DNA from: Trypanosoma brucei
Taxonomy: Eukaryota
Assembly (NCBI GenBank): GCA_000002445.1
Contig: CP000070.1
Coordinates: 1,696,001-1,760,000, forward strand
DNA length: 64,000 nucleotides
Direction of reading: 5' to 3'
Translations under genes and position numbers: made by a program
Notes under the pieces: generated by a model
Database searches by the model: none
Seen by the model: only the letters and a program-made list of their open reading frames with translations
What the model was told of the DNA's origin: nothing
Shown here: one piece after another, positions 40,107-62,877 of the stretch
Layout: every line of letters begins with the position of its first letter
Position numbering within the stretch: the first letter of the stretch is position 1

Positions 40107-40570
40107 AGTTCAACTAACTAAACAGTGGTACTTTCCAGGGTATGCAATATATATGCTCGAACCCATACAAATATATATATATATATGCACGTATTCTAAT
40201 TGCTTCCCCACGGCAGAGGTTGCAGTCAAGGAAACACCGTACCAACGTCAATCCTGCCGCTCCTGTGGGGTACAAAGCGCTCAAGCGGAAGGAATAAAAG
40301 AAAATACAGGAGAAAGGGAGTAAGAGTCAACTGGTAAGGCCACCGCACGCGCGACCGGCTGCACAGCAGAAGGTGAAGCAAAGATTCTGGTGAAACGTGG
40401 GTCCAGCCCAGCAAAGGGCAAAGAAAAACGCGTGGTTACGCGCAATGTGAAATCCAAAGATTAAAAAAAAAAATTAGTCTGTAGCAAGTAACAAATGTAT
40501 GTGAGGACGAAAAGAAACAATAACAACACAGACACCAAGAATAGCAATGGCAGCAAAACCAAAAAAAATG

Positions 40571-41083
40571 TTATATGAAAATTTGCGGGTAAGCACCTCG
40601 CAGTTCAGAAATAAGCTGCTCTGTTGTTTTCCGTCTGGATAGCGGAGCATCTGCTCTGGTTGCGCTGAATCCTGCAGTAACATTCACCACACGAGAAGTC
40701 ATGGATGACCCTGCCAGCTCCACACTGCTCACCTCCTCCGCCGCATTATCATCGATACAATCGACGCCGCTAAACAGGGTGTACGGAATTAAATGAAGCC
40801 TTGTGGTACCCTCAATTTGCGTGATATATTGGCCGATAACCACCTCAGTTCCCATTTCCCACGCCGCTCCGTTGTCAGCCTCCACCATCATCTTAAAAAC
40901 TTTATTGGGAAGTAGTCCAGTACCAGACACAACACCGACTGCTTTACGGCTGATGCCATCGACAAGTGTTGCCCTATCGAAGTTGACGTACAGCCAACCA
41001 TTCATCCAGCGGCGTCGCTTTGGATTACACTTGTTCAAAGCGTATAAAACGTTGAATGAGGAAGCTTCATTAGCAACTGGCAT
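40571..41083 (-). CDS. Hypothetical 170-aa protein. The track ORF 40571..41299 is over-extended.
   Basis: Track codon 41299-41297 is TTG, and the extension reads through a 13-nt poly(T) tract on the coding strand. The first ATG (41083-41081) lies immediately 3' of that tract and gives MPVANEASSFNVLYALNK... Confidence 0.55.
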   Translation of the reverse strand: MPVANEASSFNVLYALNKCNPKRRRWMNGWLYVNFDRATLVDGISRKAVGVVSGTGLLPNKVFKMMVEADNGAAWEMGTEVVIGQYITQIEGTTRLHLIPYTLFSGVDCIDDNAAEEVSSVELAGSSMTSRVVNVTAGFSATRADAPLSRRKTTEQLISELRGAYPQIFI

Positions 41084-41100
41084 GTCTTGAAAAAAAAAAA
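41084..41100 (-). promoter_or_regulatory. Poly(T)13 polypyrimidine tract on the coding (minus) strand directly upstream of ATG 41083; a candidate trans-splicing signal.
   Basis: The plus strand shows A13 at 41088-41100 immediately 5' of the reverse-complemented start codon. Confidence 0.4.
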
Positions 41101-41335
41101 AAACAGAAAAGCAACGGAAAAAAGCGTACGAAGGGAAGAGATATCCAACGGTGACAAGACAAAAAAAAAGAGAGGAGAAATCTCCAATCAACTCACCAGG
41201 TGGCACCTCTACTTGCACTGATGATAATTGTGCTTTGCCGGGGAAACAAGAGAGTGTCCACAAGCAATCATGCGGATGGCACCCGCTCAACCGTTTCAAA
41301 ACTTATATACGCGGGTAATATGCTATGTTCAAAGG

Positions 41336-44300
41336 TCAAGCAGTGGAAGCCGCCTGTGGAGGAAAACGAACAGTCGAAGAGCCTAATTCTTCAGCACCGC
41401 CCGAGCAACTACACACTTGCGTAGTCATGGCCCACAATGGTTCAAGCATGAGGTTAACCTCCTGCTGCAGCTCCAGTAGGGCTTGCGCCGTTGTACGGGC
41501 ACTACATGCAGCTATCACCATAGGGACACGGGGGCTCCGTACGCTAGGGCCTGGCAACCATATGCCAGCCTGTGCAACCAAACTGGCGCCGTTGGAGGGG
41601 TTAACAACCACTCGACATTGACAGCCAAACGTTAACTCAACAAGCAGCTCTATCCGCCGCTTAATGTTGAGGCGAGGGCAATTATTATTCTCCCCCTTCC
41701 TCCACTGAAGTAGCGAAAGCAACCACCCCATCTCCTCCCTCGTGTGATTATCAACGTATTTCTCAACAGCCTCTGAGAGAAGCCGTGTTGAGACAAACAG
41801 AACGTGTCCCCCCGACGCCGGACGACCCCGACTCGCCCCTGCAAGATGGTTATACCCCGCAATACAATGCTGGTGGACGGAAACAATCCCTGTTTCTGCA
41901 GTCCGCCACCTCGTTCCATCACCGTCTTTACCGCCAGTCTCATCATTCTTTTCAGGAGTTAAAGTCCGGACGACTAAACGAACAACAACTGGTACATTAT
42001 TCCGATAATCCCCATCATCCTCACAGACCCTCTCGAAACGCAATGCAACTTTGCCGCCAACCGCTACCCCTAGTGCACCGTAGCAGGCGTGCCATACACT
42101 CTTTGCGTAGTTCGACGTCGGGTCCCACCGTGCAAAGCCACCACCACCGGTACTGCTATAATCCACAACACCTCCCCTGCCGTCCCGGCGCAGCGACAGC
42201 AGAAGAGAATCAACAGCTTCAATGTAAGCATGCGCCGCATGGGTTGCATTTCTAGTGATGACAAGTTCCGAGGTACGGTCTCCGTCTCCTGATGCCGTCA
42301 CCGATTGCACTGATTTCACTCTGCACTCAAACCCACCACCAAGTTCTTCAGCTCTTCGAGACACCGTTACGGTAAACCCAGAGGTTAAACCCAACAAAAA
42401 CAAGTCATTGGGGCGAAGTAGCAGCTCGCAGAGAGCCCTGTGTCGATCCAGTTGCTGCTGAAATTCTGGAAAATTACCCCGAAGGGCCTGCACAGCGGCG
42501 GCTGCCCAAGCGTCCCTTTTGGTACGCCCTCGTCCCACACCCAACAAAAAAAATGGTGACGCATGCGCAGAATTCTCGTAGATGGAAATTTTATGGATAT
42601 GCAAGCTGCACACAATCTCTCCCGCAGTCGTATCAGAAGTATATGTGCAATCGTACCTGCCCGCCACGCCCTGAAGCAGCTCACCCAGCAAATTAGCTGG
42701 TGTGTAGAAACGCGCATCAAAATGGGGAAACCCGTCGCGTGGGAGTAAAGGTGCGGCATCGGCAGCGACTTGCAACAAGGACTCAACGTTCAAGGCGCCA
42801 ACACCTGGCACAACGCGCGCGGCTATCCTCAGCGCCTCCCGGCATGCCAAACTAAGGGAGGGGATCACGCCACGGGATTCCTTCACAGTTGCGGTGGTTC
42901 GAATGTCGTATTGCGACACTAGCACCTCGACAACGCCCTCTACACAAGGCGATGAAGGAGCACCCGTACTCACGAAACAGACACGCGGCTGGGTTCGGGT
43001 TGTGGTTTCCAGCGCCTCCAGTAATGCCGCCACCTCCGAGTCGACATGCATATCAGTTGTAGCACAGTACCCAATCGCAGCGCCGCTGGTCTTCCCCCGC
43101 GTAACGCATCCTCCAGGCCGACGCGGAAAGTTATCACAATCGGGCATATTAAGCAGCACAGCAAGCTCGTTCACACGGCGGACCGCCTCCTCCACCGTAG
43201 GTGCATGTGTCTCGGCAAACAACACCCTCTGCCCCAAAAAGTCGTAGAACAACATGGCGCGTACGATATAGTCAGCTACCAACTGCACCTCTTCATCCTT
43301 TCCAAGAAGCCACCTCGCAGCACGGGTATCAATCTCAAAGCAACGAACCTGTGGTGGAGCCATAAACCAAGAGTGGAGAAGGAAGTCAATGGAGCGTCGT
43401 GCTGTTGGCGAGTTGAGTCCAATGAGAGGGACACTCACACGCCTGGGGAACACACGGTTATAGAGAGCAGAAACCACTAAAAACAGCAGTCGCAGTGGCC
43501 CTTTGTTCTTCTCATTGTCGGGTTGTACAGGAACCTTCTCACAGACACCATGCTGCGGCCCACTCTCCATTTCGACACGTAGATTTGTACCCCAGTGGGC
43601 AACGATGCGCGTGTAAACATCCACATCACCAAAGTTCCCGGCAGCTATTTGTCGCACGCGAAGCGGTACGTCATGGACTGCCTTCTGAAAGAACTCCAAG
43701 ACTGGAAATGAGCACTGTGGCAGACGTAATGCCAAACGAATGTCCTGCAACATCAGCAGCAGGTCCGGGCAATAGAAGGCTGACTGCTCATACTGTTGTT
43801 GCTGCACCGTATCCTGTACTGACAGCTGGAAGACCGTCGAGTCGGTTGTGCTCAACACCGTTCGCCATTTGGTCAAAGAACATCGATATAAAAAGTGACC
43901 AAATGTGTACATTAGATCTCGCACAACATGGCAGAGTTGCAAAGATTGCATCCCTAACGACTCAGAGGTAATGAGAAGCGCCTTATTAAGAACATCACCG
44001 GGTATTGACACCTCCGACACCTGTGCATCCCGGGAAAACAGTTCTCCAATGTGATCTAACAGCCAATTGTTCTGATCGTCCCGATGCTTTTGCAGTTCCC
44101 CATCAGATGTCCAGTAAACCGAAGGAGACCAAAGAGTAAAATCACGGTGGGTTGTGGTGCTATCTGGGGCAACAGCCGCCGCGGCGGTGCAAATAAGCCG
44201 CCAAATATTCCCCAACAAACCAACCTGAGCAAAAGACCTTCCATCCTGCGATTTACTTAGCTTCACCTGTTCCGCTTGCGTCCCAGAGCCGCTGGTTGCC

Positions 44301-45706
44301 ACCATTTCCTCCAGGAACTTCCGATAATGATATGCACCTGACTCATCATGCGGCAGACCCACAATTCTCAGATGCGCGCTTACTAATAAGGGACCCCCAC
44401 TCCCAGATGCGGGAACCAGGTCAAGAGCAATAACAGGTAATGTGCAGCCGCTGAGGCACGGTCTGCGAGTTATTGAAACAAAGCGCGAAGCAGCTAACCC
44501 ATTGAGAGCAAACAGCCCTCTCTCGATAGAAAGTTGCATCACACTAGGCGAGTGTTGCAACAACCCGAGCAGGGCCCGCGCCCCCCGAAAAGAAACTCCA
44601 CCCTGTAGCAAAGGCAACATTGGGGTGGGTTTTGCCCCTCGGGGGGATCTACTAGTATCACAAGTTGGAAGTGCCGACTGTAGTACTCCACAGAGTCGCA
44701 TAAGAACTGAACCTACGACCCAACAACTCGGCCAGGCAAGAGCAGAACCGTACTGTAACTGCACAGCACTGCCATTGCGTGACAATACAATGCGCCTAAA
44801 CGCTTCTGGAGGTGATGTGAGGGGCAAACGAAGTTCTGTCTCGTTCTCCACGCTGTCAACAGCGACAAGGGATAATGACTCCCACCCCTCCCTTGAGAGG
44901 AGTTTTACGCGTTGAGCTCCACGTCTGTGGGCTAACGATGACCACCATGTCGTTTCCTGACTGGCACAAAGCGAACCACACAGGTACAGTGAAAGGAAAT
45001 CCCCATCCCAGTCATAAACGCGCAATCCTTCCTCATAACAATTGAGAAAACGCCAAGCTTCCACTTCCCTACTTTCCAATTCCTCCACGGCGTACCTATC
45101 GAGCTCCTCGAGTGCTAAGGCAAAGCCCACTTTTATTGCATCACGGGGAGATCCTCCCTCACCACGACAGATGGCAATGCCGCCAGTGGGCTCATTTTGT
45201 GAAAGTTCTTCCCATCCTCCTCCAGGCTCTGCGTCGCTTAAGGGAAGCTCGGCTGTGACTGTAGTCATAAATTGCGTTGGCATCCCCTCAGACCGAAGCG
45301 TATCGCCACCCTCGCTGTCTGGCACCCTTAGCAGATGTACTACAACCTTCGCGTCCATACTTTTCAGGGTCGCATCGAGTTCGGCAAATACATCGGAGTC
45401 AACACACTGTAGCATGTGACGTAGGCCCGCCTTCGTATTCACCAGTGAAAGAGCTGCTCCGTGGGCACGCTCTTCAGCTTCTGCAGCGCTCTCTGCAGCA
45501 GCCGACGCTATGTGGAGTGAGCATAACGCATTTACACGAAGGTATACGTTGCTTTCAAAGTAGTTGCTGTTCAAACGGGTAGTTCGAACTTTTGCGCTCC
45601 CAAACACTTCTTTGAAACGCGACCTAATGTGCCTTCGCTGGGCGGCCAGCAACCTCAATTGACGATTCTTCCGTATTTTCGCGGCCAGTACAGCCCCCGA
45701 AGACAT
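41336..45706 (-). CDS. Large 1456-aa hypothetical protein containing a canonical double-stranded-RNA-binding domain (dsRBD).
   Basis: ATG at 45706-45704. The dsRBD consensus is clear in PANLLGELLQGVAGRYDCTYTSD...GEIVCSLHIHKISIYENSAHASPFFLLGVGRGRTKRDAWAAAAVQAL, which fits the alpha1 ... GxGxSKKxAKxxAAxxAL pattern. I saw no RNase III signature (ERLEFLGDA). Confidence 0.6.
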   Translation of the reverse strand: MSSGAVLAAKIRKNRQLRLLAAQRRHIRSRFKEVFGSAKVRTTRLNSNYFESNVYLRVNALCSLHIASAAAESAAEAEERAHGAALSLVNTKAGLRHMLQCVDSDVFAELDATLKSMDAKVVVHLLRVPDSEGGDTLRSEGMPTQFMTTVTAELPLSDAEPGGGWEELSQNEPTGGIAICRGEGGSPRDAIKVGFALALEELDRYAVEELESREVEAWRFLNCYEEGLRVYDWDGDFLSLYLCGSLCASQETTWWSSLAHRRGAQRVKLLSREGWESLSLVAVDSVENETELRLPLTSPPEAFRRIVLSRNGSAVQLQYGSALAWPSCWVVGSVLMRLCGVLQSALPTCDTSRSPRGAKPTPMLPLLQGGVSFRGARALLGLLQHSPSVMQLSIERGLFALNGLAASRFVSITRRPCLSGCTLPVIALDLVPASGSGGPLLVSAHLRIVGLPHDESGAYHYRKFLEEMVATSGSGTQAEQVKLSKSQDGRSFAQVGLLGNIWRLICTAAAAVAPDSTTTHRDFTLWSPSVYWTSDGELQKHRDDQNNWLLDHIGELFSRDAQVSEVSIPGDVLNKALLITSESLGMQSLQLCHVVRDLMYTFGHFLYRCSLTKWRTVLSTTDSTVFQLSVQDTVQQQQYEQSAFYCPDLLLMLQDIRLALRLPQCSFPVLEFFQKAVHDVPLRVRQIAAGNFGDVDVYTRIVAHWGTNLRVEMESGPQHGVCEKVPVQPDNEKNKGPLRLLFLVVSALYNRVFPRRVSVPLIGLNSPTARRSIDFLLHSWFMAPPQVRCFEIDTRAARWLLGKDEEVQLVADYIVRAMLFYDFLGQRVLFAETHAPTVEEAVRRVNELAVLLNMPDCDNFPRRPGGCVTRGKTSGAAIGYCATTDMHVDSEVAALLEALETTTRTQPRVCFVSTGAPSSPCVEGVVEVLVSQYDIRTTATVKESRGVIPSLSLACREALRIAARVVPGVGALNVESLLQVAADAAPLLPRDGFPHFDARFYTPANLLGELLQGVAGRYDCTYTSDTTAGEIVCSLHIHKISIYENSAHASPFFLLGVGRGRTKRDAWAAAAVQALRGNFPEFQQQLDRHRALCELLLRPNDLFLLGLTSGFTVTVSRRAEELGGGFECRVKSVQSVTASGDGDRTSELVITRNATHAAHAYIEAVDSLLLSLRRDGRGGVVDYSSTGGGGFARWDPTSNYAKSVWHACYGALGVAVGGKVALRFERVCEDDGDYRNNVPVVVRLVVRTLTPEKNDETGGKDGDGTRWRTAETGIVSVHQHCIAGYNHLAGASRGRPASGGHVLFVSTRLLSEAVEKYVDNHTREEMGWLLSLLQWRKGENNNCPRLNIKRRIELLVELTFGCQCRVVVNPSNGASLVAQAGIWLPGPSVRSPRVPMVIAACSARTTAQALLELQQEVNLMLEPLWAMTTQVCSCSGGAEELGSSTVRFPPQAASTA

Positions 45707-46313
45707 GCGAACACGCAGCTGTTATTATCATTCACCGCTCTCAGTGGTGGCCGTCGAGTCCTAACTTACCTAGAACTCCCTTTTGTGCAGGAACTCGAAA
45801 AGTAATACCGGGTTTCCCTCTCCCCTTACCTCAGGAGAACAAGTATGCGGTTATAAGAAGTGAGAACAACGGAGCAATTTTCGTCAGATTCAGTGCTTCT
45901 GTGGTGATCAAAGAAAAAAAACAACCAGATGATATCGAACCCCGCGTCCCGTCGCTCAACTCAGCAAAATGGGAAACAAAAAAATCACGGTTAACAACAA
46001 ATGGGGAAAAAATACTGATACCCTTCCTCTACGTCCTGTTACGAAATATTTCGAACGAGTTACTCCTAACAATTAATTTCCCGTCTCGGCACTCATCCCT
46101 ACGCACATAATATGCATTTCACTACAACTGTCGACGATTGGAAGACGAGAAACCGTCTCTGTACTCATCACTCAGACAATTCACATAAATACAAACAAGT
46201 AAATAAATACATTTGAAGCAATGATTTTCCGGCCGTATTCGCGGCACCTTGTTTTCCTCATGTCGAATATTTAATGCCTCACTCAGACGCAAAGATTCTG
46301 AAACCTCTCCAGC

Positions 46314-46706
46314 CTAGGGGCAAGGGGAAAGGTTCACCACGGCGATGCCAAAGTCCAATGAAATTTTGTCATCATCGGGGTGGTAGGTGACCATGAGCGT
46401 CAGTTGATTCCTTCGCAATATGCTACCAAGGCAGTCTCCAGGGTCTTGTGCATTCGTCAGTTCAACATTGCCAGATACTTCGTCATATACGTACGGCTCA
46501 TTCTTACACTCCTCTACATCCCCGGAAATCGTAAGAGATATGTCAAACGTATCCAAATCGACGGGAAAGTCAACTCGGCCCTCCACTATGGAAAAGTAAT
46601 CACCACAGTAAGGACCTTGAGGGCGAGTCTTGATAGTCGACAACCCCTCGGTGACTTGTAGGAAAGGGACCAAAAGCAAAAGGGCAGCAAAAACCATGTA
46701 CCTCAT
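46314..46706 (-). CDS. Small hypothetical protein (130 aa) with a predicted N-terminal signal peptide.
   Basis: ATG at 46706-46704. MRYMVFAALLLLVPFLQVTEG has the hydrophobic core of a signal peptide, with a cleavage-like site before LSTIK. The mature part has four Cys. Confidence 0.45.
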   Translation of the reverse strand: MRYMVFAALLLLVPFLQVTEGLSTIKTRPQGPYCGDYFSIVEGRVDFPVDLDTFDISLTISGDVEECKNEPYVYDEVSGNVELTNAQDPGDCLGSILRRNQLTLMVTYHPDDDKISLDFGIAVVNLSPCP

Positions 46707-49700
46707 GGTGGAGAACTTCGTTTTATTTCTTTTTAATTTGCTTGTTGTGTTCTTGGGTTTTCAACTGATGAAAGCCAATGACTACGACGCAGCGCGCTGA
46801 TCAAGGTTACTCTATATCAAAAAAAAAAAAATCAAAGCGCCAAAAAGAGAGAGAATAGTGCACATTTACAAAACGGAAACCATCGTTGTATTGGCATAAA
46901 CCAAAGAGATGCTGCTCTCGTAACTTTACTCTCACATTACGGGTACTACATGGAGCCAGGTCAACCACCCATAGTAACTTAGAACCGAAGTGCTCAGTTC
47001 TGCTTTTGGTCACAAATGGTGCACTGCCAGTTGACCGGCAGTACCGCAATTATTTCACCCCCCCCCCTCCATCAGAGGATGTAGATAAGGGAACATGAAC
47101 CAAATTACAACGACTGGAAGCTCTAGCGTTGATATTTAAAAGTAAAAAAAATAGTAATAACAAGAATAGCGTTCAAAAGCAAAAGTTTAGCTATAACGGC
47201 TCGTGATAGGTCAAGACAGACACAAATCCTCTGCGACGACTCTGACACACACGAGAATCCAACAGCTCCTCAACCCACGTCTTTCACATGCTGGAGAAAC
47301 AAAACACAGTCCATTAGTACCGAATACACTTTGTTGAAAAGTGTTACCTCTGTCCTTATAAATGTGCCTGTAGTATTCTTCCCTCCCTCGATGTCGCTAC
47401 TAAAATGCCGGTTGCTTAATTGGAAACAGCGGTACCCCTTTAGCAAGATGTAGAATCCTACTAGTCATATCCCCTACACAGACACACGCACACAAACCGA
47501 CGGAATGTACACATATTATCCACTCCTGTAGGCAACAACAAAGGATGATCCCCGGCAACTACCACAAATGCAATGAGCATATGTATAAGTTACAGACAAG
47601 AACACATGCATTATTTGACGCATTTGCCTGCCAAACTGCTTGAAATCACCACCGTAGGCGATGCCCGCCCGTATTTACTGCTTCTCCTTCAGCCGGACGT
47701 ACTGGCGGTGTCGGAACCACCGCAGAGAAACCGGTGGAAGGGCATTAACCCGACAACACGTATAATTTTGCGTTTGCACACTGCAACACAGGGAAAGAGA
47801 GAAAACAGGCTCTCCAGAATCAGTTTCGACCTATGCTAGGTCGAAGCATATCAACATAGAGGAAATCATTGTGAAAACAAAAAAACAAAGTTAACTTAGA
47901 TTACACACCTGTCACAGCAACTCGCTGTCTCCGTCGGTCAACCACACGCACGTACACCACGTCGCCCTCGCGTGGCCCTGCCAACAGCAAGTGCAACCCC
48001 GAAAATGAACCTAGCGGATTGGAAACAGTATCAAGCAACAACCAAAACAGTGTGGGAAAAAGCAAATCAATCAATTTCCGAAGGAGGTTCGGCAGCCTGA
48101 CACACGATAGCCGAAGGTTCCCCAACATACCACCGACCACTTCTTCACTTGAACCAACCATTATGCAGCATACCAGCCGGGAACATACTGTAAGGAAGCG
48201 ACCCATCACAGAAGGTGGTGGGTCCAGCAGAGCCAACACACGGAAAGGCAGTATAGAGGAACCCGCGTGTACCTCCATGGTCATAACAACAATAACAGCA
48301 ACTACCAAATTCCTTTGATTGTTTATTCATCTCAGGGGTAAAAATGCATCGATACCAAATCAGTTTAACACACGTAGGTCGCAACCGCGACGAAAACACT
48401 CTGTCCTTGGAAATTTTTATATGAGGAATGATCATTCTCAGCACGGCAACTGCCAATCAGCCACCCAAACTCCGATATAGCAATGTAGAGCGGACTTACA
48501 CTCGACCGTGAAGCAAAACCGTTTGAACGCAAGAACGGTGCGCATCCACTTTCCATAGTGAAAAGGGCCAGGCAAAAGTACATCACAAGAACACTGCAAT
48601 ATTGTGAGCCCGCGCCGTGGCCACACAACACGTTCCAGCAGTATAATATAATCGCTTGCGTGACATCATACCGAATTAAACGCCACAACCACCCGCAGCC
48701 ATTCTCTGCTGAATAGGCGAGACAACAATCTTATTCACTGCACACAACAGGGTGCCTCTGCAACCAATGCGGTTGTGACTAACAAGTCCCCGCCCTGGGA
48801 CAACTAGTCGCTACGGCGGGAAGCAGTAGCAACCACTGCTGTACCGTCCATTTTTTTTTCCTGACGGCGCCGATGCAGATCAACAAAGGCACACATCCCC
48901 GTTGCTCGGTCACACACGCGCAGCTACCCTTCCGTACGCGCCAATCGTACTCGTGCAGAAGCCCTGACCCCTCAAGAATGACACGCAGAAATAATAAAAG
49001 GTCCAAGCCACAACTTGTATGTACACAAACATACATGTGCACGGACAATATGTGGATCAGAACAACTACGGAACTGCAACATTCTGCACAAATGCGTACA
49101 CTGAGTCCTATTAACTGTAAAAATGCCCGAAACGGAAGCGAGGGGGAAGAAAAAAAACAGCTTACTCCCATGTATTATTCATTGTCATACAAAGTTCAGA
49201 AGTAGCTGCTATAGAAATAATGCGAAAAATGACTCAAAACTGTTTGTTTCTACTGTTGACGACTTTTTCTTTTAGCCCTCGCGGTGAGGGGAAACAATCT
49301 GTGTGAAAGACGAATCAAACCAACATGCAAAGTGTTAGAGTTCGTATTTATTTTCCTGACAGCAGTTTTGTCCCTCTTGAAAGATATTTAAAGGTATCCG
49401 CAACATACCACAAGGGAATACAGATGCCACTTGCTGATTTTTTTTCTTTATTCGGCAATTCCCCATATGTTTAACAACCCTACAACATTAGGATGTCCTT
49501 TCCCTGCGGGAACGGGAAGGGCAGCTTGTATTAGAATTTTCTTCTAAAGGGGTTGGAAAAAACACACCGAGAAGGTGTGCAAATTTCTTCCCATTAATGT
49601 ATTCAAACTGGGGACGTTAGGTACGAAGCAATTTCCAAATGCTAGAATATGTGTCGACTTTCCAAAATGAAAAAAGGGTGAAAGATACCTCAACTGTCCT

Positions 49701-50218
49701 CAATAGAACTCTAGAACGCGGAAACAAGAGATGGAAAAGTAAGCCTTCACTGTTCCGTGGCATACTTCACACCCACATCGCACTCTTCAGGTTCTGTCCT
49801 CCTCTGCTCTGTGTCCATATCCTCCTTTTACCAAAAGGGGAGCAACCTCAATTTTAAACGGCGGCTGTTAGCGAGCTTCAAAACCTCGGTTTGAGATACT
49901 TTCATCAAGCTCCAACCGGTATCTAACACGCCACACAATCTCCACCTAACCACAGCAAATTGGGTGTTATCTATATTAACTGAACAGCTGTACTTTGTTT
50001 TTGTGGAATTTATGTCAAAACATGCCCGTCTCGCGTACCAACTGGGCCTTGGGACTCTAAGGCCATTTAGGAAAGTCAGTGCGGATAGTTCATCCAGACA
50101 TAACGACAGCAAGTTAAAACCAATGCGTCTGGTTATATTGGTCTTTATATGATAATTTTATATGTCCAACTCTCGGCGAGTCTATATTTCTTGTACAACT
50201 CGGAACACTTCACTTAGC

Positions 50219-50824
50219 CTATTGGTTCTCACAGCCGAGATCTTCGGATAATGTCATGGTCTTCCCTTCTACTCCTCCACTGGTACCTAGTGAAGGGGGA
50301 AAGTACACTGGGATACTCTCGCCACTCATCAGCTCAACGTAACTGACTCGCAATGATCCAATAAAGGATTGTCGATCGGAGGGGTTGGGGGAAATAGAAT
50401 CACCATAGTCGTCACTCGCGGATGTGTGAAACGCGGCGGTTAGGTGCGAGGATGACCTCATCTGCCGTAGGGCTGCCCCATTACTACGGACAGCCATATC
50501 CAGAGCATCAACTGACAAACAATGTGTTCCGTCAACGTCGCACGCATTAGCTTCGCATGTTGGCAACGGTACCTCTTCTGTTTGAGTTTCTTTTTCATGC
50601 GATAAATGAATGGAACCAGCCTCATCTTTCAAGGTCCCTGACGCCATATCGCCGCCAGCTTCATTACTTTGGTGACGTTCCCCGGCACCGGCATGGGGTG
50701 TAGCGTCAGCATCCGCGACATCTGAACCTCCTGGAACGGTCGGGTATGCTAATCCCATCCCCTTGTTCACAGGAACGTGCCGCTCAACCTTTAGGACAAA
50801 CTGCCGCGGAAGGCCCCCAGACAT
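50219..50824 (-). CDS. Hypothetical 201-aa acidic protein, the first gene of the minus-strand array next to the strand-switch region.
   Basis: Track codon 50905-50903 is TTG; the first in-frame ATG is 50824-50822 (MSGGLPRQFVLKVERH...). Codon usage is coding-like and I recognise no domain. Confidence 0.45.
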   Translation of the reverse strand: MSGGLPRQFVLKVERHVPVNKGMGLAYPTVPGGSDVADADATPHAGAGERHQSNEAGGDMASGTLKDEAGSIHLSHEKETQTEEVPLPTCEANACDVDGTHCLSVDALDMAVRSNGAALRQMRSSSHLTAAFHTSASDDYGDSISPNPSDRQSFIGSLRVSYVELMSGESIPVYFPPSLGTSGGVEGKTMTLSEDLGCENQ

Positions 50825-50936
50825 ATCCGCGAAAATTACCTCCAAAGAAACTTTGACTTCGGACGGAAACGGAAGCAGTAAAAAGATAAAGGAGTCTAAA
50901 AGCAACGAGTCGACAGAGTCATCTTAACCAGCTTCT

Positions 50937-50968
50937 TCACACACACACACACACACACATACATACAT
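50937..50968. repeat. (CA)10(TACA)3 tract at the left edge of the dSSR; it reads as a GT-rich tract on the minus strand.
   Basis: Direct reading of the sequence. Confidence 0.85.
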
Positions 50969-51690
50969 ACACGGCAAGAATAGATTTTCCACGACCTCTG
51001 CGGCCACACCGATCGCAGAACCGCGCAGCGGCACCCCCTCCGGTCGGAAGGACAAGGACCGGTCCAACTCGCATAATCACTCCACATAGCACAGTGGATC
51101 GAAATTTGCCCCTCCCGCGCCGTGTCATCTCTGCGCGGAAAACAAAAAAGTCGGCGTCGGTCCACCCGGTCAACCGCCGCGACTAACGGCGTCAGTTCAC
51201 CTCTCTGCGGAGGGGACGGACGCACCGCCACCGCCGCTGCGGCCATGGGTTATCGCATCTAAGAAAAAAAAATCTGCAGTGGGGAGGGGCATTCACGTAT
51301 AAGAGTCGGCCCCCAGAAGGGCCGTTGCGTTACGCCGTAGCGTCCCAGAAGGCGGTGGGTGCAGAGATTAGCTTCAGTTCCCGTGCTTGGAGAGGTTTGA
51401 TAACACGCCCTGTGGGAGGGCGGATCCCGCAGGAGTTATTCACTCCTGTCGGCATTGGGACAAAATTTCCGGCGCAAATATTAATATGAGGCAGCTGGTC
51501 ACAGTGCCCCACCACGCGACTCATCCCACAAACTGGAAGTTGGGGTCCGCGTATTTTTTGCTTTTCCTTAACCCATCACCGCTCAGCCGTTGTACGTGGA
51601 GGTGGATGCCCCAGCGGAACAAGGGGTCCATCCGTGGGAGCGGAACTTGGTAATTCATTCAACATGGAAGACAGCGGTGCGCCTGGGTCT

Positions 51691-51720
51691 ACTGCCCGTT
51701 ACTGCCCGTTACTGCCCCTT
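51691..51720. repeat. ACTGCCCGTT 10-mer tandem, 3 copies with the third diverged, inside the dSSR.
   Basis: Direct reading of the sequence. Confidence 0.85.
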
Positions 51721-52119
51721 TACCTCGAGTTTTTCACTCTGCTGATTGCCGGTCCTGGTGACCGAAGTCCAACACCGACGCACTGAATCGCGCAGAGGTC
51801 GTGTGCGTCAACTGACGCTGCGGGGACTTCCTAGGTCACTGTCTCGGTTCCGCACGGTCACGGCAGTTCAAAGTAACTTTGACGCGGGGGGGGGGGAGTT
51901 CTCCGACCAGTAGCTGCCCATGAGGTCGTGGGGGGCCCTTCGGGTGCGGTGTTGGCTACATTGCTTGGACTGCGTGTGCGCAGGATCATTTCCGCAAAAA
52001 TCTTAGGACAGGGTTCTGTCAACCTCTCCCCGTATTTTGGACCACAGACACCAGTGTCAAGAAAAGACGACAGTTGGTCGAAACTGATTCCTCAACGTTG
52101 CTTCAGGTTGCGTTTTGAG

Positions 52120-52262
52120 TTATTTTTTTTTAGCTGCGTTATAACTACTAGGGATGTGTTTCTGTCTGCCTCATCGGTTTTACCTGTTTTTTTTTTTAAG
52201 GCTGAAGAATTTTCCTTTCTACATAAAGCTGCTTTCCAGTGTTGCAGGTTCAAGGAAGGTAA
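52120..52262 (+). promoter_or_regulatory. Polypyrimidine tracts and downstream AG dinucleotides forming the likely spliced-leader trans-splice acceptor region for the first plus-strand gene.
   Basis: T9 at about 52126-52134 and T11 at about 52185-52196 are followed by AG dinucleotides within 80 nt of ATG 52269. Confidence 0.45.
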
Positions 52263-52268
52263 GCAGAC

Positions 52269-52937
52269 ATGTCTAATGCCGAGGCCTACGATAAGAAGCT
52301 TAAAATGCTGGAAGTGAAGGCCCAGGGCTTACTTCGTGATTTAAAAACAACAGCAGATCCCATTCGGCGACTTCGCTGTCATACGGAGGCTCAAAATACG
52401 TTAAATGAGATTCAGCAAAATTACCAGTTACTCAAGACAGAGATACAGTTGCTTGAGGGTGACGAAGGAAAGTTATACAAAAATGCTGAACAGGAGCATG
52501 CGCATGAGCTAAGTAACTTGAAGCGCATGCTACAGCTGGAAAAGGCACCTGTCCCCGTCGTCCCGGGGGACCAAAGCAGCTCAATGTTCGGCGCGTTGCC
52601 GGCGACCGGCGACCGAAGAGAAGAAGCAAGACGCATCGCTCAAAGCGTTGTTACCATCCAGGGCACAACACTGGGCTCACTAGCGCAGGCCGAACGAGCG
52701 CTGCACGACACTGAGGAAGTTAGTGTGAATGCTACAACAAGACTTATTGCGCAGACGGAACAAATACGGAATATACGCGATCGTGTGGAGGACTTAGATT
52801 CCGAAGTTACACGAGCCAGGAAAGAACTAAACGAATTTATCCACCGAATGGCAACAGACAAGATTATCATTTGCTTTTACATACTTATAATGATAGGTAT
52901 TATTATATTTGCTACGTTAAAGTTTTTGCAAAAATAA
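52269..52937 (+). CDS. Tail-anchored SNARE (Qb/Qc-type, Vti1/membrin-like) with a C-terminal transmembrane segment.
   Basis: ATG at 52269. A heptad-repeat SNARE-like motif (TTRLIAQTEQIRNIRDRVEDLDSEVTRARKEL) lies immediately before the hydrophobic C-terminus IIICFYILIMIGIIIFATLKF. Confidence 0.6.
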   Translation: MSNAEAYDKKLKMLEVKAQGLLRDLKTTADPIRRLRCHTEAQNTLNEIQQNYQLLKTEIQLLEGDEGKLYKNAEQEHAHELSNLKRMLQLEKAPVPVVPGDQSSSMFGALPATGDRREEARRIAQSVVTIQGTTLGSLAQAERALHDTEEVSVNATTRLIAQTEQIRNIRDRVEDLDSEVTRARKELNEFIHRMATDKIIICFYILIMIGIIIFATLKFLQK

Positions 52938-55134
52938 TGAAGCCGAGTTTTTTCTCCTTTTTACCCACTTTACAGCGTGCGGAACCACGGCCAAAGAACC
53001 GGCACGGTAAACGAGGGGAGACGGGTTTCTACATTTCGTGCCCCATCAGTAATATATAGTGTATTGTTTACGTTACAGGGTACTTGCGTGTTAAACACAG
53101 CGTTGTACGATAGAATTTCTTCCCTACGCTCAGCCTTTACTCATTGGAGATGTAGCAAGGTGTAGTAAATCACACATGTTTTGGTTCGTACCCGGTTTGG
53201 CTACAGGGAGAATGCAGAAGCATTCCCCTCCCCCCCCCTTTGCAACGCACGAAAGCATCATACTTTGACCTGTCTGCTTTTCTTTTTTTTTTTTCGGCAC
53301 GTCTATGAGCCTGCCCGACCCGGCAGTCTCCCCGTTTGGACCGTGACGTGACCTAGTCGTGCTCAGCATTCCCGCTTGGAGTGTTGTCCTTTTAGAATGT
53401 CGATGCAGAGTTAATACCAGACTGTGTGGGGGTATCACGCGGAGTTGCCTAATACATACTGAGAAGAGCAAAACGTTGTTTATGTGCTTTCAAGTTGCTA
53501 TAATGGAATGCTAAACACCTCTGTGTCACAAGGGAGCAGGATCGGGAGAGAACGTTTAGCACACTGATGTGGCTGCTGCTGTTTATATGTCTCACAAGTG
53601 GAATACCCACTTCGGGTCGAATCATGTTGGCTTCCCGTGTTGCTTTCCTGCGCCCAACTCGCGTACCGAAAGGAAGCAATATGTGTCAGCTGTCGACACG
53701 ATCAAGTGTAAGTGGGTGTTCCGTTAGCTCTTGTGGGACGAAATGAAGGTTCTGACAATCCCAGCCGATCTTGTTAACCAGGATTTTTTTTTGTGTGCTC
53801 TGTGGGTCGGCTGTGGAAGAGAATGTTTGGTCCCTTGCCTGACCAAGTGTTTCTCATGTTTTTCCTTAAATTCGTGTGGTCGGTACCAATACAAAGTTCA
53901 AAAAGGCAGATATTTGCACTCCGGTTTCGGGCTAGTACTGGCGACGCCGGTTTCAGTGAACACCGCAACCTTTACTCGTCACCACATGAGAGTTCCATGT
54001 GGCTCTTCATAATATCAACTTCTTGTGACTGAGGATCGTGCGAGCTTCCGCAGAGTTCTGCGAAAGAATTCGAATTCCATTTTTTAGCCATTGGCCAGGT
54101 GCTCTGAGGCTTGAGTTGTGAGCGTAGTAGATCCCATGACAGTAGTGAAATTTGCACCTCTGGTTACACACAGGTGAATACACTTGTCACGGTACTGGGG
54201 GCATGTTAGCTTGCCGCTGTGAGAACCTTTAAAATTCATGGCTAGCCCAGGTCACTTTTTTTTTTACATCCCTTTATCTCATACGGATGGTTACAAGCTG
54301 CCGATAAAGCTTTTTAAAATAATCTGTGTCACCAACAGTCGTTTCAGTTACGTATCCAACTCTGGGAATTAAAGCAGGAGGTGGAAGAAATGTATGTCAG
54401 CTGGGGGGAAATCGTTATGGTGAGGTCGGCTCTTCTTCGGTGTAGTGGCAAGGCTTTTAGCTCCACAACGTTAGCGAGGGTATGCTTCGCCGGGAAGGGG
54501 GTCTAGCGTTAATGCGGTTGCGAGAGGAGTGTCGTGGCGTCGCCGTTGTGACCACAGCGAAAGTACTACCATGGGGAGGCGACGAATGTTTTACTGTTGA
54601 CGCTGCAAATAATCTTGTGGTAATCTACAACTGATTGTTAACGTAGTCTCGTTATTTTCAAAATATGCGTTTGTTGTTAGTATTCATCCCCCCCCCCATA
54701 TCCTTACTCGCGACTGCTTTCTGTCTTGTTATGTAGTTGATCAGCGGCCGCCGCGTTATTCGACCATATATTTTACCCGCAAGTATCGCTAGGACGAGGT
54801 ACGGAAGAAGTCCCACGCCCTTGCTATTGAGTTTTATTTACTCACTGGTCATCTTTTGGCTCGTTTTGAGCGGCGCCCCATGCACCTCTCCATGGTGTGC
54901 CCGTGCATGGCGACCCGTTGGCGCGTAACTGGTCTGCATCGATGTCGAAACTATGGTGCTACCGTTAGTCTAACGCTTTAGTTTTTCTTTGTTCCTTTTT
55001 TTTTGTTGGTGAACTGGCACCGTTTGTGTCTCCACGTTTGGCAAGTCTCGACCACCTTAAGTTATCCCCGGTGCGCGACAATCGCCTGCAAGTGGGCACA
55101 GAGAACGGAAGTGGGTCATTTGGTGTGCCAATAA

Positions 55135-56721
55135 ATGAGTGACAAAGATGATGGTGGTACTTCAAGTCCCATCCCGGTGGTAACATCCCGCGGCACGTGT
55201 GCAGTAAAGTCGGAGTTCCTCCGACCGGCGCCAGTTCGTGTTACGCTCGATACTGAGGGTCGCACAAGAGGGATGAACAAAGGGGCGGAAAGACTTCGCT
55301 GTGACGTTGTTGAAGGCACTCAACGACCTTCTTTGGAAGGGGAGTCCAATTTCTTTCATGGAGAGGTGCTACAACGAATCAAAGCTGTGGTTCGTGGGAA
55401 GAGAAAGGATACGAAGCGCGACCGCCGTGAGGACTGCCAGGCACCTTCTGGGGAAGCTGAGTCAACTGCAGGGAAGGTGAAACATGATGATGAAGAAAGA
55501 GGGACCCCAGCGCTACAGCAAACTAATACAGATGAAAGCCATATTACCGTCAAGAGTGCTGTCGCGAGGGCAAGTAATACCGAAGAATCCATGCGAGAAA
55601 GGAGTGCGCAACACAAGGCACTCTTCAGCAACAAACTCGTCCTAGCGCCACTCACGACAGTGGGGAACCTGCCATTCCGTAGGGTGTGCAAAGAATACGG
55701 AGCGGATATAACAGTAGGTGAAATGGCAATAGTTCATAACCTTAATCGTCTGCAGAAATCTGAGTGGTCCCTATTGCGTCGGCACTCGTCTGAGGATATC
55801 TTCGGTTTGCAGATAGCTGTTTCACGTCCACATGATGCTATTACGTGGGCACAAGCAGTCGAAGAGTCGGGATTTTCCTATGATTTCGTTGATATTAACT
55901 GCGGGTGCCCAGTCGATAAAGTTGTCCTCTCTGGCTGCGGCTGTGGTCTGTGGGAAAGGAAAGGTAACCGCTTGCGAGATGTTGTTCAGTCGCTAGTGGC
56001 ACATCAATCGAAGCCTGTTACCATCAAGTGTCGAATGGGACCCGACGAAGAGAACCCGGAGCTCCACAAGCATATTGCTGATTACGAAACGTGGGGTGCA
56101 GCGGCCGTGACTATTCATGGACGCTCACGCAGGCAGCGGTACACAAAACTAGCGAACTGGTCTTACATCGACAACTGCGCCTCCCTTACGTCATTGCCAG
56201 TAATTGGAAACGGCGACATATTCTCGTGCGAAGATATTGTTGAACATCGCGCGCAGTCCAAGAATGTTAGCTCCTTCATGATTGGCCGAGGAGCTCTTGT
56301 AAAACCCTGGATATTTGAAGAAATAAAGACGGGGCGAGTGTGGGATATTAGCAGTCATGAACGCTTTGAGATGCTGCGCCGGTTCTGCAACTTTGGCCTC
56401 TCGCACTGGGGAGCTGACGAGCGTGGAGTTCTTAATACGCGTCGTTTCTTGTGTGAATGGTTGTCTTTCTTGTGTCGATACGTCCCTGTGGGACTGCTCG
56501 AAAGACCACCACAGCGCATCAACGAGAGACCGCCCTACTACGAAGGACGGGACGAACTCGAAACGCTGATGGCGAGCGATAGTGCCGTCGACTGGATCCG
56601 AATCAGTGAAATGTTGTTGGGGCCAGCAGGTGACAAGTTCAGATTTACGCCAAAGCACAAAAGCAACGCCTATGCCACGGGTGGAAGCCTGGCCGAAGCG
56701 GATATGGATGTTGAGGGTTGA
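55135..56721 (+). CDS. DUS3: tRNA-dihydrouridine synthase, Dus3-like.
   Basis: ATG at 55135. The Dus TIM-barrel motifs LAPLTTVGNLPFRRVCKEYGADITVGEMA, DINCGCP and HGRSRRQRYTKLANW are present. By my recollection the C-terminal block TRRFLCEWLSFLCRYVPVGLLERPPQRINERPPYY...DWIRISEMLLGP matches human DUS3L closely. Confidence 0.85.
   Translation: MSDKDDGGTSSPIPVVTSRGTCAVKSEFLRPAPVRVTLDTEGRTRGMNKGAERLRCDVVEGTQRPSLEGESNFFHGEVLQRIKAVVRGKRKDTKRDRREDCQAPSGEAESTAGKVKHDDEERGTPALQQTNTDESHITVKSAVARASNTEESMRERSAQHKALFSNKLVLAPLTTVGNLPFRRVCKEYGADITVGEMAIVHNLNRLQKSEWSLLRRHSSEDIFGLQIAVSRPHDAITWAQAVEESGFSYDFVDINCGCPVDKVVLSGCGCGLWERKGNRLRDVVQSLVAHQSKPVTIKCRMGPDEENPELHKHIADYETWGAAAVTIHGRSRRQRYTKLANWSYIDNCASLTSLPVIGNGDIFSCEDIVEHRAQSKNVSSFMIGRGALVKPWIFEEIKTGRVWDISSHERFEMLRRFCNFGLSHWGADERGVLNTRRFLCEWLSFLCRYVPVGLLERPPQRINERPPYYEGRDELETLMASDSAVDWIRISEMLLGPAGDKFRFTPKHKSNAYATGGSLAEADMDVEG

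Positions 56722-62786: not shown

Positions 62787-62877
<91 letters not shown>
62787..62877. repeat. (GT)n/(CA)n dinucleotide microsatellite of about 45 units.
   Basis: An uninterrupted GT run of about 90 nt is visible in the sequence between Kae1 and the next plus-strand CDS. Confidence 0.95.

What the first reader, a model, noticed from the sequence alone, without database searches (positions are those of the whole stretch)
50825..52268. Divergent strand-switch region with a G-run, a 10-mer tandem and a GT/CA-rich tract
Coding-strand polarity flips here: 17 minus-strand CDSs lie to the left and 5 plus-strand CDSs to the right. In trypanosomatids such dSSRs are RNA pol II transcription start regions, and they are marked by H2A.Z-containing nucleosomes. 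The segment is compositionally distinct from the AT-rich UTR-type spacers elsewhere in the window. It contains a GC-rich block (51000-51250), a G11 homopolymer (51886-51896), three tandem ACTGCCCGTT units (51691-51720) and a (CA)n(TACA)n tract (50937-50968) that is GT-rich on the minus strand. GT-rich elements have been proposed as pol II promoter elements in T. brucei, so the individual motifs are candidate cis elements worth testing.
Basis: partly seen in the sequence, partly recalled or inferred. Interest (0 to 1): 0.5.

Follow-up and report, generated by a model that had tools for sequence, protein, structure and literature searches.

The report
Known trypanosome divergent transcription start region
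This 1.4-kb spacer is the already published start point of two back-to-back gene arrays on Trypanosoma brucei chromosome 7; two of the three flagged motifs match known promoter-associated sequence words, but all three vary between closely related strains.

Summary
The window is T. b. brucei TREU927 chromosome 7, about 1,696,001-1,760,000. The interval 50825-52268 lies between Tb927.7.6430 (minus) and the SNARE-like gene taken to be Tb927.7.6440 (plus). Every listed feature sits at the stated coordinates. The main interpretation holds and is already published: Kolev et al. 2010, Table S14, lists Tb927.7.6430->6040 (-) and Tb927.7.6440->6490 (+) as "Divergent" putative Pol II transcription units. 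The G11 run and the (TG)n tract are exact matches to 10-mers that Wedel et al. 2017 found enriched on the coding strand of transcription start regions. Each lies on the coding strand of its own unit. The ACTGCCCGTT tandem is not on that list. None of the three motifs is conserved. In T. b. gambiense and T. equiperdum the G-run reads GGGCGGGGG and the 10-mer has two copies. In T. b. gambiense the CA tract is 32 nt longer. The GC-rich core diverges faster than other spacers (2.84% vs 1.34%). What recurs across Trypanosoma species is composition, not sequence: a GC-rich island, with a mirrored G+T skew in three of the five. No tRNA, Rfam family, Pfam domain or conserved ORF lies inside. Verdict: a real, ordinary, already known feature.

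The parts
50219..50824 (-). Tb927.7.6430, the first annotated ORF of the leftward unit. It is annotated 'T. brucei spp.-specific' and its coding status is doubtful.
   Evidence: Exact protein match to AAZ12707.1/XP_846266.1. No Pfam hit. It diverges 1.98% from T. b. gambiense, against 0.49% for conserved CDSs (p=1.5e-4), which is not distinguishable from spacers. No homologue lies at the syntenic T. vivax position.
50861..50894 (-). Pyrimidine-rich tract followed by AG dinucleotides at 50858, 50852 and 50841. This is a candidate trans-splice acceptor region for the first leftward gene (inferred).
   Evidence: Read directly from the sequence. No splice-site data were available.
50938..50972 (-). 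(TG)n(TGTA)n tract on the minus strand, which is the coding strand of the leftward unit. It is a microsatellite.
   Evidence: TRF score 49. It contains TGTATGTGTG, GTATGTGTGT, TATGTGTGTG, ATGTGTGTGT and TGTGTGTGAA, all listed in Wedel 2017 Dataset EV1. It is 32 nt longer in T. b. gambiense.
50990..51002 (-). Left copy of the 13-mer CGCAGAGGTCGTG, read on the minus (coding) strand.
   Evidence: Perfect 13-nt inverted repeat with 51791-51803. Only 2 of 300 dinucleotide shuffles reach 13 nt. There is no extended similarity around it. It is identical in T. b. gambiense.
51001..52000 (.). GC-rich core of the strand-switch region. The G+T skew changes sign near 51250. This is the presumed zone of dispersed, oppositely directed initiation.
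   Evidence: GC is 0.587, the highest 1-kb window in the 64 kb. The + strand G+T fraction is 0.34 at 50800-51100 and 0.59-0.61 at 51800-52300. Divergence from T. b. gambiense is 2.84%, against 1.34% in other spacers (p=7.5e-4). GC-rich islands at the equivalent place in T. vivax, T. theileri, T. melophagium and T. cruzi.
51691..51720 (+). ACTGCCCGTT x3 tandem, most likely a strain-specific slippage duplication.
   Evidence: TRF score 56. Only two copies are present in T. b. gambiense and T. equiperdum. It is absent from the Wedel 10-mer list.
51791..51803 (+). Right copy of the 13-mer CGCAGAGGTCGTG, on the plus (coding) strand.
51886..51896 (+). G11 run on the coding strand of the rightward unit, 373 nt upstream of the SNARE-like gene's ATG.
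   Evidence: It contains GGGGGGGGGG (132 coding-strand vs 17 non-coding-strand occurrences in TSR region 1), CGGGGGGGGG and GGGGGGGGAG from Wedel Dataset EV1. It reads GGGCGGGGG in T. b. gambiense and T. equiperdum.
52120..52200 (+). Two T-rich polypyrimidine tracts, each followed by AG (52120-52133 and 52183-52200). These are candidate trans-splice acceptor sites for the SNARE-like gene (inferred).
   Evidence: Read directly from the sequence. Direct repeat D1.
52269..52937 (+). SNARE-like gene, taken to be Tb927.7.6440 by its position next to Tb927.7.6430. It is the first gene of the rightward unit.
   Evidence: Exact match to AAZ12708.1/XP_846267.1. Weak V-SNARE_C and Sec20 Pfam hits. It is the first plus-strand gene next to a strand switch in T. 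vivax, T. theileri, T. melophagium and T. cruzi.

Best explanation
The interval is the divergent strand-switch region of T. b. brucei chromosome 7, about 1,746,825-1,748,268. RNA polymerase II starts two polycistronic units there, one running left from Tb927.7.6430 and one running right from Tb927.7.6440.

The likely mechanism is as follows; the steps are inferred unless marked.
- The region has no fixed promoter motif. It is a GC-rich island flanked by mirror-image G+T-rich sequence on each coding strand (shown here).
- On the left (minus strand) the G+T-rich sequence includes (TG)n, and a T9 run lies near the skew crossing. On the right (plus strand) it includes G11, G6 and T-runs (shown here).
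- Stiff homopolymer and GT tracts disfavour canonical nucleosomes. They favour H2A.Z/H2B.V chromatin and recruitment of Pol II and the SPARC complex.
- This gives dispersed, mainly unidirectional initiation on each side.
- The first polypyrimidine-AG sites (about 50861-50894 on minus, 52120-52200 on plus) then receive the spliced leader.

The individual motifs are replaceable contributors to composition, not conserved cis elements.
For: - Identity of the locus: four window proteins are exact matches to TREU927 chromosome 7 entries, including Tb927.7.6430.
- Published start-site call: Kolev 2010 Table S14 lists Tb927.7.6430->6040 (-) and Tb927.7.6440->6490 (+) as Divergent Pol II units. The text reports 5'-triphosphate read enrichment at every divergent unit.
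- Polarity: 18 minus-strand ORFs lie to the left and plus-strand ORFs to the right.
- Motif match: G11 and (TG)n are exact matches to Wedel 2017 coding-strand-enriched TSR 10-mers, each on its own coding strand. Synthetic promoters built from such 10-mers drove directional transcription and H2A.Z deposition.
- Skew: the + strand G+T fraction runs from 0.34 to 0.61 with the crossing near 51250.
- Cross-species: the SNARE-like gene is the first plus-strand gene beside a strand switch, with a GC-rich island (0.60-0.73), in T. vivax, T. theileri, T. melophagium and T. cruzi. The mirrored skew is clear in T. theileri and T. melophagium.
- Nothing else is encoded: no tRNA, no Rfam hit and no Pfam hit for the internal ORFs.
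Against: - No primary transcription or chromatin data for this locus could be inspected here. Table S14 names the units but gives no start coordinates.
- The motifs are not conserved even within Trypanozoon, and the core is the fastest-diverging sequence class. Sequence-specific function is therefore unsupported.
- Two nearby G-runs lie on the non-coding strand of the right unit (C9 at 53230 and C10 at 54688). G-run orientation is therefore not clean.
- GT-rich windows as extreme as these occur in ordinary UTR spacers of the window.
- If Tb927.7.6430 is not a real gene, the leftward start zone could lie anywhere within 46707-51300.
Confidence: 0.92

Rival explanations
1. The three motifs (G11, the 10-mer tandem and the CA/TACA tract) are neutral slippage products of a fast-evolving spacer. 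They have no individual role, and promoter activity, if any, resides elsewhere or in bulk composition.
For: All three differ between TREU927 and T. b. gambiense or T. equiperdum. G11 becomes GGGCGGGGG, three copies become two, and the CA tract gains 32 nt. The core diverges at 2.84% against 1.34% in other spacers. Nothing is alignable with T. vivax, T. theileri, T. melophagium or T. cruzi beyond low complexity. Tandem repeats are abundant in the window.
Against: The G-run and the (TG)n tract are exactly the word classes enriched on TSR coding strands genome-wide, and such words were sufficient in synthetic promoters. Polymorphism in length does not abolish a compositional function. This rival is compatible with the main explanation at the level of the region.
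Confidence: 0.55
2. The GC-rich core hides an unannotated gene, either a small protein or a non-coding RNA, which would explain its distinct composition.
For: GC content (0.587) equals or exceeds that of coding sequence. Internal ORFs of up to 129 aa exist. One weak sub-threshold Rfam hit was found (Burkholderia sRNA model, 18 bits, E=0.32).
Against: No tRNA, no Rfam family at gathering score and no Pfam hit for six internal ORFs. Indels of 10, 4 and 32 nt separate the subspecies, and substitution is the highest of any sequence class. There is no cross-species sequence conservation. The Rfam hit is to a bacterial model far below its threshold.
Confidence: 0.04
3. The region's main role is as an ORC1/CDC6 binding site or replication origin lying between the two promoter zones.
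For: Tiengwe et al. 2012 report that 70% of divergent SSRs carry at least one ORC1/CDC6 site, located centrally between the two H4K10ac peaks. Nineteen early origins centre on divergent SSRs.
Against: No locus-specific data were seen for chr7 around 1.747 Mb. This role would add to transcription initiation rather than replace it.
Confidence: 0.3
4. The conserved strand-switch interval is really 46707-52268 (5.56 kb). On this view Tb927.7.6430 is a spurious or very young ORF inside the leftward start region, so the reader's left boundary is an annotation artefact.
For: Tb927.7.6430 is annotated as T. brucei-specific. It has no Pfam domain and diverges at a spacer-like rate (1.98%; 6 synonymous and 6 non-synonymous codon changes). 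It has no homologue in the 4.4-kb T. vivax interval between the Tb927.7.6420 orthologue and the SNARE-like gene. A G10 run on the minus strand lies at 47058-47067 and is conserved in T. b. gambiense. dSSRs are described as 5-10 kb.
Against: Kolev 2010 lists Tb927.7.6430 as the first ORF of the unit and reports processed minus-strand transcripts Tb7.NT.78 and Tb7.NT.79 at 46928-49114. Leftward transcription therefore starts to the right of 49114.
Confidence: 0.4

Closest known systems
T. brucei divergent Pol II transcription start regions (Siegel et al. 2009; Kolev et al. 2010, Table S14)
   Same: It is one of them. The exact gene pair Tb927.7.6430/6440 is listed as the start of two 'Divergent' units.
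   Different: Nothing differs in kind. The spacer between annotated CDSs (1.44 kb) is shorter than the 5-10 kb usually quoted, unless Tb927.7.6430 is discounted, which gives 5.56 kb.
GT-rich dispersed promoters of T. brucei (Wedel et al. 2017, EMBO J)
   Same: The G11 run and the (TG)n tract are exact matches to the published coding-strand-enriched 10-mers and have the correct orientation. The G+T skew is mirrored.
   Different: Activity of these particular fragments has not been tested. [quoted passage not shown]
Sequence-specific focused core promoters in T. brucei dSSRs (Cordon-Obras et al. 2022, Cell Rep)
   Same: That work describes two oppositely oriented unidirectional promoters between divergent units (as summarised). 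Here an identical 13-mer, CGCAGAGGTCGTG, sits on each coding strand.
   Different: The paper and its motifs were not available, so no motif comparison was made. Staneva et al. 2022 could not find those motifs under other promoter peaks. The 13-mer is only weakly beyond chance.
Leishmania major chromosome 1 strand-switch region (Martinez-Calvillo et al. 2003)
   Same: Bidirectional initiation within a short divergent switch region carrying G/C tracts. This comparison rests on my own knowledge and on the citation seen.
   Different: It is a different genus. In L. major the orthologous SNARE-like gene has no strand switch within 2.7 kb upstream.
Mammalian CpG-island (dispersed) promoters
   Same: A GC-rich island with dispersed, divergent initiation and no fixed motif. 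Kolev et al. drew this analogy themselves.
   Different: CpG observed/expected is raised only at 51000-51300 (about 1.3) and is 0.8-1.0 across the rest of the core. I know of no DNA cytosine methylation system that would maintain such islands in trypanosomes.

Membership tests
T. brucei divergent Pol II transcription start region (dSSR/TSR) | Coding-strand polarity flips outward, with the left unit on the minus strand and the right unit on the plus strand. | tested here: met
   ORF map. Gene identities. The same arrangement is seen in four other Trypanosoma species.
T. brucei divergent Pol II transcription start region (dSSR/TSR) | Primary (5'-triphosphate) transcripts initiate in the region on both sides. 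| not testable with these tools
Kolev 2010 Table S14 lists both units as 'Divergent' and states that enrichment was seen at every divergent unit.
T. brucei divergent Pol II transcription start region (dSSR/TSR) | Flanking enrichment of H2A.Z/H2B.V, H4K10ac, RPB1 or RPB9, and SPARC. | not testable with these tools
   No ChIP tracks or TSR coordinate tables were held. Only general statements were available.
T. brucei divergent Pol II transcription start region (dSSR/TSR) | No Pol III gene (tRNA or snRNA) or other gene accounts for the boundary. | tested here: met
   ARAGORN found 0 genes. Rfam found 0 hits at gathering score. Pfam found 0 hits for internal ORFs.
GT-rich promoter element (Wedel 2017) | [quoted passage not shown] | tested here: met
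   On the + strand, CGGGGGGGGG, GGGGGGGGGG (twice) and GGGGGGGGAG lie at 51885-51898. On the - strand, five (TG)n-type 10-mers lie at 50936-50963 and three T-rich ones at 51137-51149.
GT-rich promoter element (Wedel 2017) | The fragment drives orientation-dependent reporter expression and H2A.Z deposition. | not testable with these tools
   This needs transfection and ChIP.
GT-rich promoter element (Wedel 2017) | The ACTGCCCGTT tandem belongs to the enriched vocabulary. | tested here: not met
   No 10-mer of the tandem is in Dataset EV1.
Sequence-specific core promoter (Cordon-Obras 2022) | The functional motifs of the 75-bp promoter are present. | not tested
   The paper is not held, so the motif sequences are unknown to me.
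Conserved cis-regulatory element (phylogenetic footprint) | The sequence is conserved above background between related taxa. | tested here: not met
   The three motifs are polymorphic within Trypanozoon. The core diverges at 2.84% against 1.34% in other spacers. No non-low-complexity BLASTN hit was found to four other species.
G-quadruplex-forming element | Four G3+ tracts with loops of 7 nt or fewer. | tested here: not met
   A regex scan finds none in 50825-52268 on either strand.

The most novel reading that the evidence does not exclude
The promoter signal at this strand switch may be purely compositional and structural. On this reading a GC-rich island with mirror-image G+T skew is re-created in each Trypanosoma lineage, while the underlying sequence turns over faster than neutral spacers (2.84% vs 1.34% between T. 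brucei subspecies). That would imply either selection on composition rather than sequence, or initiation-associated mutagenesis (R-loops or DNA damage at start sites). A weaker sub-case is that the identical 13-mer CGCAGAGGTCGTG on both coding strands is a true core-promoter word.
Probability: 0.3. Interest if true: 0.45.

Novelty: already known. Interest (0 to 1): 0.15.

Why it matters
The finding adds little on its own. The locus is one of roughly 70-90 divergent start regions already catalogued in T. brucei, and the motif classes flagged are the published GT-rich promoter vocabulary.

Its use is as a compact worked example (1.4 kb). It shows that the promoter-associated words are strain-polymorphic and that only composition is shared across species. 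That is relevant to the open debate between dispersed compositional promoters (Wedel 2017) and sequence-specific core promoters (Cordon-Obras 2022).

Tried and rejected
- Hidden RNA gene: ARAGORN and Rfam (gathering and E-value modes) found nothing credible.
- Hidden protein gene: six internal ORFs have no Pfam hit. The indels between subspecies are not multiples of three.
- Phylogenetic footprinting: MAFFT and BLASTN against the orthologous spacers of T. vivax, T. theileri, T. melophagium and T. cruzi gave only low-complexity matches.
- T. congolense, the most useful outgroup, had no contig on record.
- The T. grayi contig ends inside the SNARE-like gene.
- L. major shows no switch within 2.7 kb upstream of its SNARE-like gene.
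- Ancient inverted duplication of the two halves: local alignment does not exceed shuffles.
- Canonical G-quadruplex: none in the interval.
- Splice-site and UTR tables for Tb927.7.6430/6440: not found in the held supplements of Nilsson 2010 or Siegel 2010.
- TSR coordinate tables: not present in the Wedel supplements.
- Cordon-Obras 2022 and Siegel 2009 are not held.
- The bacterial promoter and terminator scanner was not used because it does not apply to trypanosomes.
Full report
**Identity of the window.**
The 222-aa protein at 52269-52937 is an exact match to a T. equiperdum contig and to T. b. brucei TREU927 and T. b. gambiense proteins. Four window proteins match TREU927 chromosome 7 entries exactly. 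The 201-aa minus-strand protein at 50219-50824 is Tb927.7.6430, annotated 'T. brucei spp.-specific protein'. By position, the SNARE-like gene is Tb927.7.6440 and the tRNA-dihydrouridine synthase at 55135-56721 is its plus-strand neighbour.

Kolev et al. 2010 give a poly(A) site for Tb927.7.6420 at chr7:1,741,962, with what I read as a 352-nt 3' UTR. This places the window at Tb927_07_v4:1,696,001-1,760,000, an offset of exactly 53 x 32,000. The finding therefore covers about chr7:1,746,825-1,748,268.

**Check of the observation.**
Everything described is present at the stated coordinates.
- The minus-strand ATG is at 50824-50822 and the plus-strand ATG at 52269.
- (CA)11(TACA)3 lies at 50938-50972.
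- Three ACTGCCCGTT units lie at 51691-51720; the third has one mismatch.
- G11 lies at 51886-51896 and is the only G-run of 8 or more on the plus strand in the 64 kb.
- To the left, all 18 plausible ORFs are on the minus strand. To the right, the ORFs are on the plus strand.
- The spacer is the most GC-rich of 20 intergenic spacers (0.536 against 0.30-0.51). The stretch 51001-52000 is the highest-GC 1-kb window in the 64 kb (0.587).
- Tandem repeats and CA/TG microsatellites are common in the window. Those two items are not unusual in themselves.

**What the region contains.**
There is no tRNA and no Rfam family at gathering score. Permissive mode gave only a sub-threshold hit to a bacterial sRNA model. 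The internal ORFs are at most 129 aa and have no Pfam match.

At fine scale the plus-strand G+T fraction rises from 0.34 at 50800-51100 to 0.59-0.61 at 51800-52300, crossing 0.5 near 51250. Each half is therefore G+T-rich on the coding strand of the unit it faces. These values lie at about the 3rd and about the 90th-93rd percentile of 300-nt windows. They are not the most extreme in the window.

Polypyrimidine tracts followed by AG lie just upstream of each first gene: 50861-50894 on the minus strand, and 52120-52133 and 52183-52200 on the plus strand. These are the inferred trans-splice acceptor regions.

**Published evidence for this locus.**
Kolev et al. [quoted passage not shown] The text states that reads from a 5'-triphosphate-enriched library were enriched at every divergent transcription unit, on both the sense and antisense strands.

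The same paper lists processed novel transcripts that map to window 46928-47780 and 47893-49114 on the minus strand, and to 53134-54879 on the plus strand. These fit leftward and rightward transcription from the interval.

**The motifs against the published promoter vocabulary.**
Wedel et al. 2017 (PMC5579346) found primary transcripts and Pol II at the 5' ends of H2A.Z domains, with a 4:1 sense bias. They also showed that synthetic promoters built from coding-strand-enriched 10-mers drive directional transcription and H2A.Z deposition. Their Dataset EV1 is headed by GGGGGGGGGG, with 132 coding-strand against 17 non-coding-strand occurrences in the first fifth of TSRs. It also includes CGGGGGGGGG, GGGGGGGGAG and several (TG)n-type words.

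I scanned the window with all 157 usable words on the list.
- The G11 run gives four hits on the plus strand at 51885-51898.
- The CA tract gives five hits on the minus strand (TGTATGTGTG, GTATGTGTGT, TATGTGTGTG, ATGTGTGTGT, TGTGTGTGAA).
- Each set lies on the coding strand of its own unit.
- The ACTGCCCGTT tandem gives no hits.

G/C runs of 9 or more cluster near the switch: four of six lie within 47058-54697. Two of those four (C9 at 53230 and C10 at 54688) lie on the non-coding strand of the right unit. No canonical G-quadruplex motif lies in the interval.

**Conservation.**
I aligned TREU927 with T. b. gambiense DAL972 and T. equiperdum OVI.
- The G11 run reads GGGCGGGGG in both relatives.
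- The 10-mer has two copies in both, not three.
- The CA/TACA tract is 32 nt longer in T. b. gambiense. The T. equiperdum contig does not reach it.

Substitution divergence between TREU927 and DAL972 varies by sequence class.

| Sequence class | Divergence |
|---|---|
| Conserved CDSs | 0.49% |
| Other intergenic spacers | 1.34% |
| Tb927.7.6430 'CDS' | 1.98% |
| GC-rich core 51001-52000 | 2.84% |

- The core against other spacers gives Fisher p = 7.5e-4.
- Both G/C and A/T sites are elevated in the core.

For other species I fetched the orthologous region through Dus3 orthologues. In T. vivax, T. theileri, T. melophagium and T. cruzi the SNARE-like gene is again the first plus-strand gene next to a strand switch. 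A GC-rich island (0.60-0.73) lies just upstream. The G+T skew is clearly mirrored in T. theileri and T. melophagium but less so in T. cruzi and T. vivax. MAFFT and BLASTN find no alignable sequence beyond low complexity. What is shared is composition, not sequence.

The left flank is not syntenic in T. cruzi and T. theileri, so the switch is also a synteny breakpoint. In L. major no switch lies within 2.7 kb upstream of the SNARE-like gene.

**The left boundary.**
Tb927.7.6430 has no Pfam domain and diverges at a spacer-like rate. It has no homologue in the 4.4-kb T. vivax interval between the Tb927.7.6420 orthologue (E = 3.7e-30) and the SNARE-like gene. If it is not a genuine gene, the conserved switch interval is 46707-52268 (5.56 kb). 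That would match the 5-10 kb usually quoted for dSSRs.

**A minor unexplained feature.**
The 13-mer CGCAGAGGTCGTG occurs once on each coding strand, at 51002-50990 on minus and 51791-51803 on plus. Only 2 of 300 dinucleotide shuffles give a perfect inverted match this long. There is no extended similarity around it. I could not compare it with the Cordon-Obras 2022 promoter motifs because that paper is not held. Staneva et al. 2022 report that those motifs are not found under other promoter peaks.

**Mechanism.**
The best-supported model is two oppositely oriented, dispersed GT-rich promoters flanking a GC-rich centre. Homopolymer and GT tracts are thought to exclude canonical nucleosomes and favour H2A.Z chromatin and Pol II recruitment. 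Initiation is mainly sense-directed on each side, and the first polypyrimidine-AG sites receive the spliced leader.

What is shown here:
- the divergent polarity;
- the composition and mirrored skew;
- the motif matches to the published 10-mers;
- the lack of sequence conservation;
- the published listing of both units.

What is inferred:
- the nucleosome effects;
- the exact start sites;
- the splice sites.

ORC1/CDC6 binding in the centre is plausible on general grounds, since 70% of divergent SSRs carry a site. It was not checked for this locus.

**Verdict.**
The feature is already known, and the motif-level candidates are ordinary members of a published vocabulary and are polymorphic between strains. 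Interest is low. The only mildly new points come from a single locus: the elevated divergence of the core together with a compositional island that recurs across species, and the doubtful status of Tb927.7.6430.

Noticed in passing
window 50219-50824 (-): Tb927.7.6430 behaves like non-coding sequence. It diverges 1.98% from T. b. gambiense against 0.49% for neighbouring CDSs, with 6 synonymous and 6 non-synonymous codon changes. It has no Pfam domain and no homologue at the syntenic T. vivax position. The T. b. gambiense annotation extends it to 260 aa, through the (TG)n tract.
   Followed up: partly
window 51001-52000: The GC-rich core is the fastest-diverging sequence class between TREU927 and DAL972 (2.84% against 1.34% in other spacers, Fisher p=7.5e-4). 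Both G/C and A/T sites are elevated. This could reflect relaxed constraint or initiation-associated mutagenesis.
   Followed up: partly
window 50990-51002 and 51791-51803: An identical 13-mer, CGCAGAGGTCGTG, lies on each coding strand as a perfect inverted repeat 788 nt apart. Only 2 of 300 dinucleotide shuffles reach this length, and there is no extended similarity around it.
   Followed up: partly
window 51249-51272 (-) and 52120-52145 (+): A similar T-run + TAG(A/C)TGCG..ATAAC string occurs on the minus strand near the skew crossing and on the plus strand at the presumed SNARE-like gene acceptor. The alignment score is no higher than shuffles give (26 against a shuffle maximum of 30), so it may be chance. 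If real, the minus-strand copy could be a splice acceptor about 430 nt upstream of the Tb927.7.6430 ATG.
   Followed up: no
window 47058-47067, 53230-53238, 54688-54697: C9-C10 runs cluster within 5 kb of the switch. The one at 47058 is a G10 on the left coding strand and is conserved in T. b. gambiense. Those at 53230 and 54688 are G-runs on the non-coding strand of the right unit, and the 54688 run is interrupted in T. b. gambiense.
   Followed up: partly
L003 and L004 (T. theileri, T. cruzi) against window 37200-50824: The left flank of the switch is not syntenic. T. cruzi, T. theileri and T. melophagium have a WD40 protein of about 900-920 aa and a small 147-176-aa gene there. T. brucei and T. 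vivax have the 1456-aa (1412-aa in T. vivax) protein and Tb927.7.6420. The switch is therefore a synteny breakpoint.
   Followed up: partly
window 52938-55134 against L003 6860-8800, L004 7638-8192 and L006 1128-6304: Other trypanosomes carry extra genes between the SNARE-like gene and Dus3. dCMP deaminase is present in T. cruzi, T. theileri, T. melophagium and T. grayi. A 411-412-aa protein is called in T. theileri, T. melophagium and T. grayi, and a BT1 gene in T. grayi. T. brucei has only a 2.2-kb spacer there, which carries Kolev's 'novel transcript' Tb7.NT.81.
   Followed up: no
L001 (T. equiperdum OVI contig end, about window 51233) and L006 (T. grayi contig end): Draft-assembly contigs break at or near this strand-switch region. 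The T. equiperdum contig also has an N-gap flanked by a duplicated stretch of about 65 nt. The two copies differ at the same sites that separate the TREU927 and T. b. gambiense alleles, which suggests heterozygosity collapsed badly during assembly.
   Followed up: no
window 62788-62877: A long (TG)45 microsatellite lies on the plus strand inside the right unit. In T. b. gambiense it is interrupted by GAAC units.
   Followed up: no
window 40571-41299 and 41336-45706 (-): Two minus-strand ORFs are separated by only 36 nt. This could be one gene split by a frameshift or stop, or two tightly packed genes.
   Followed up: no
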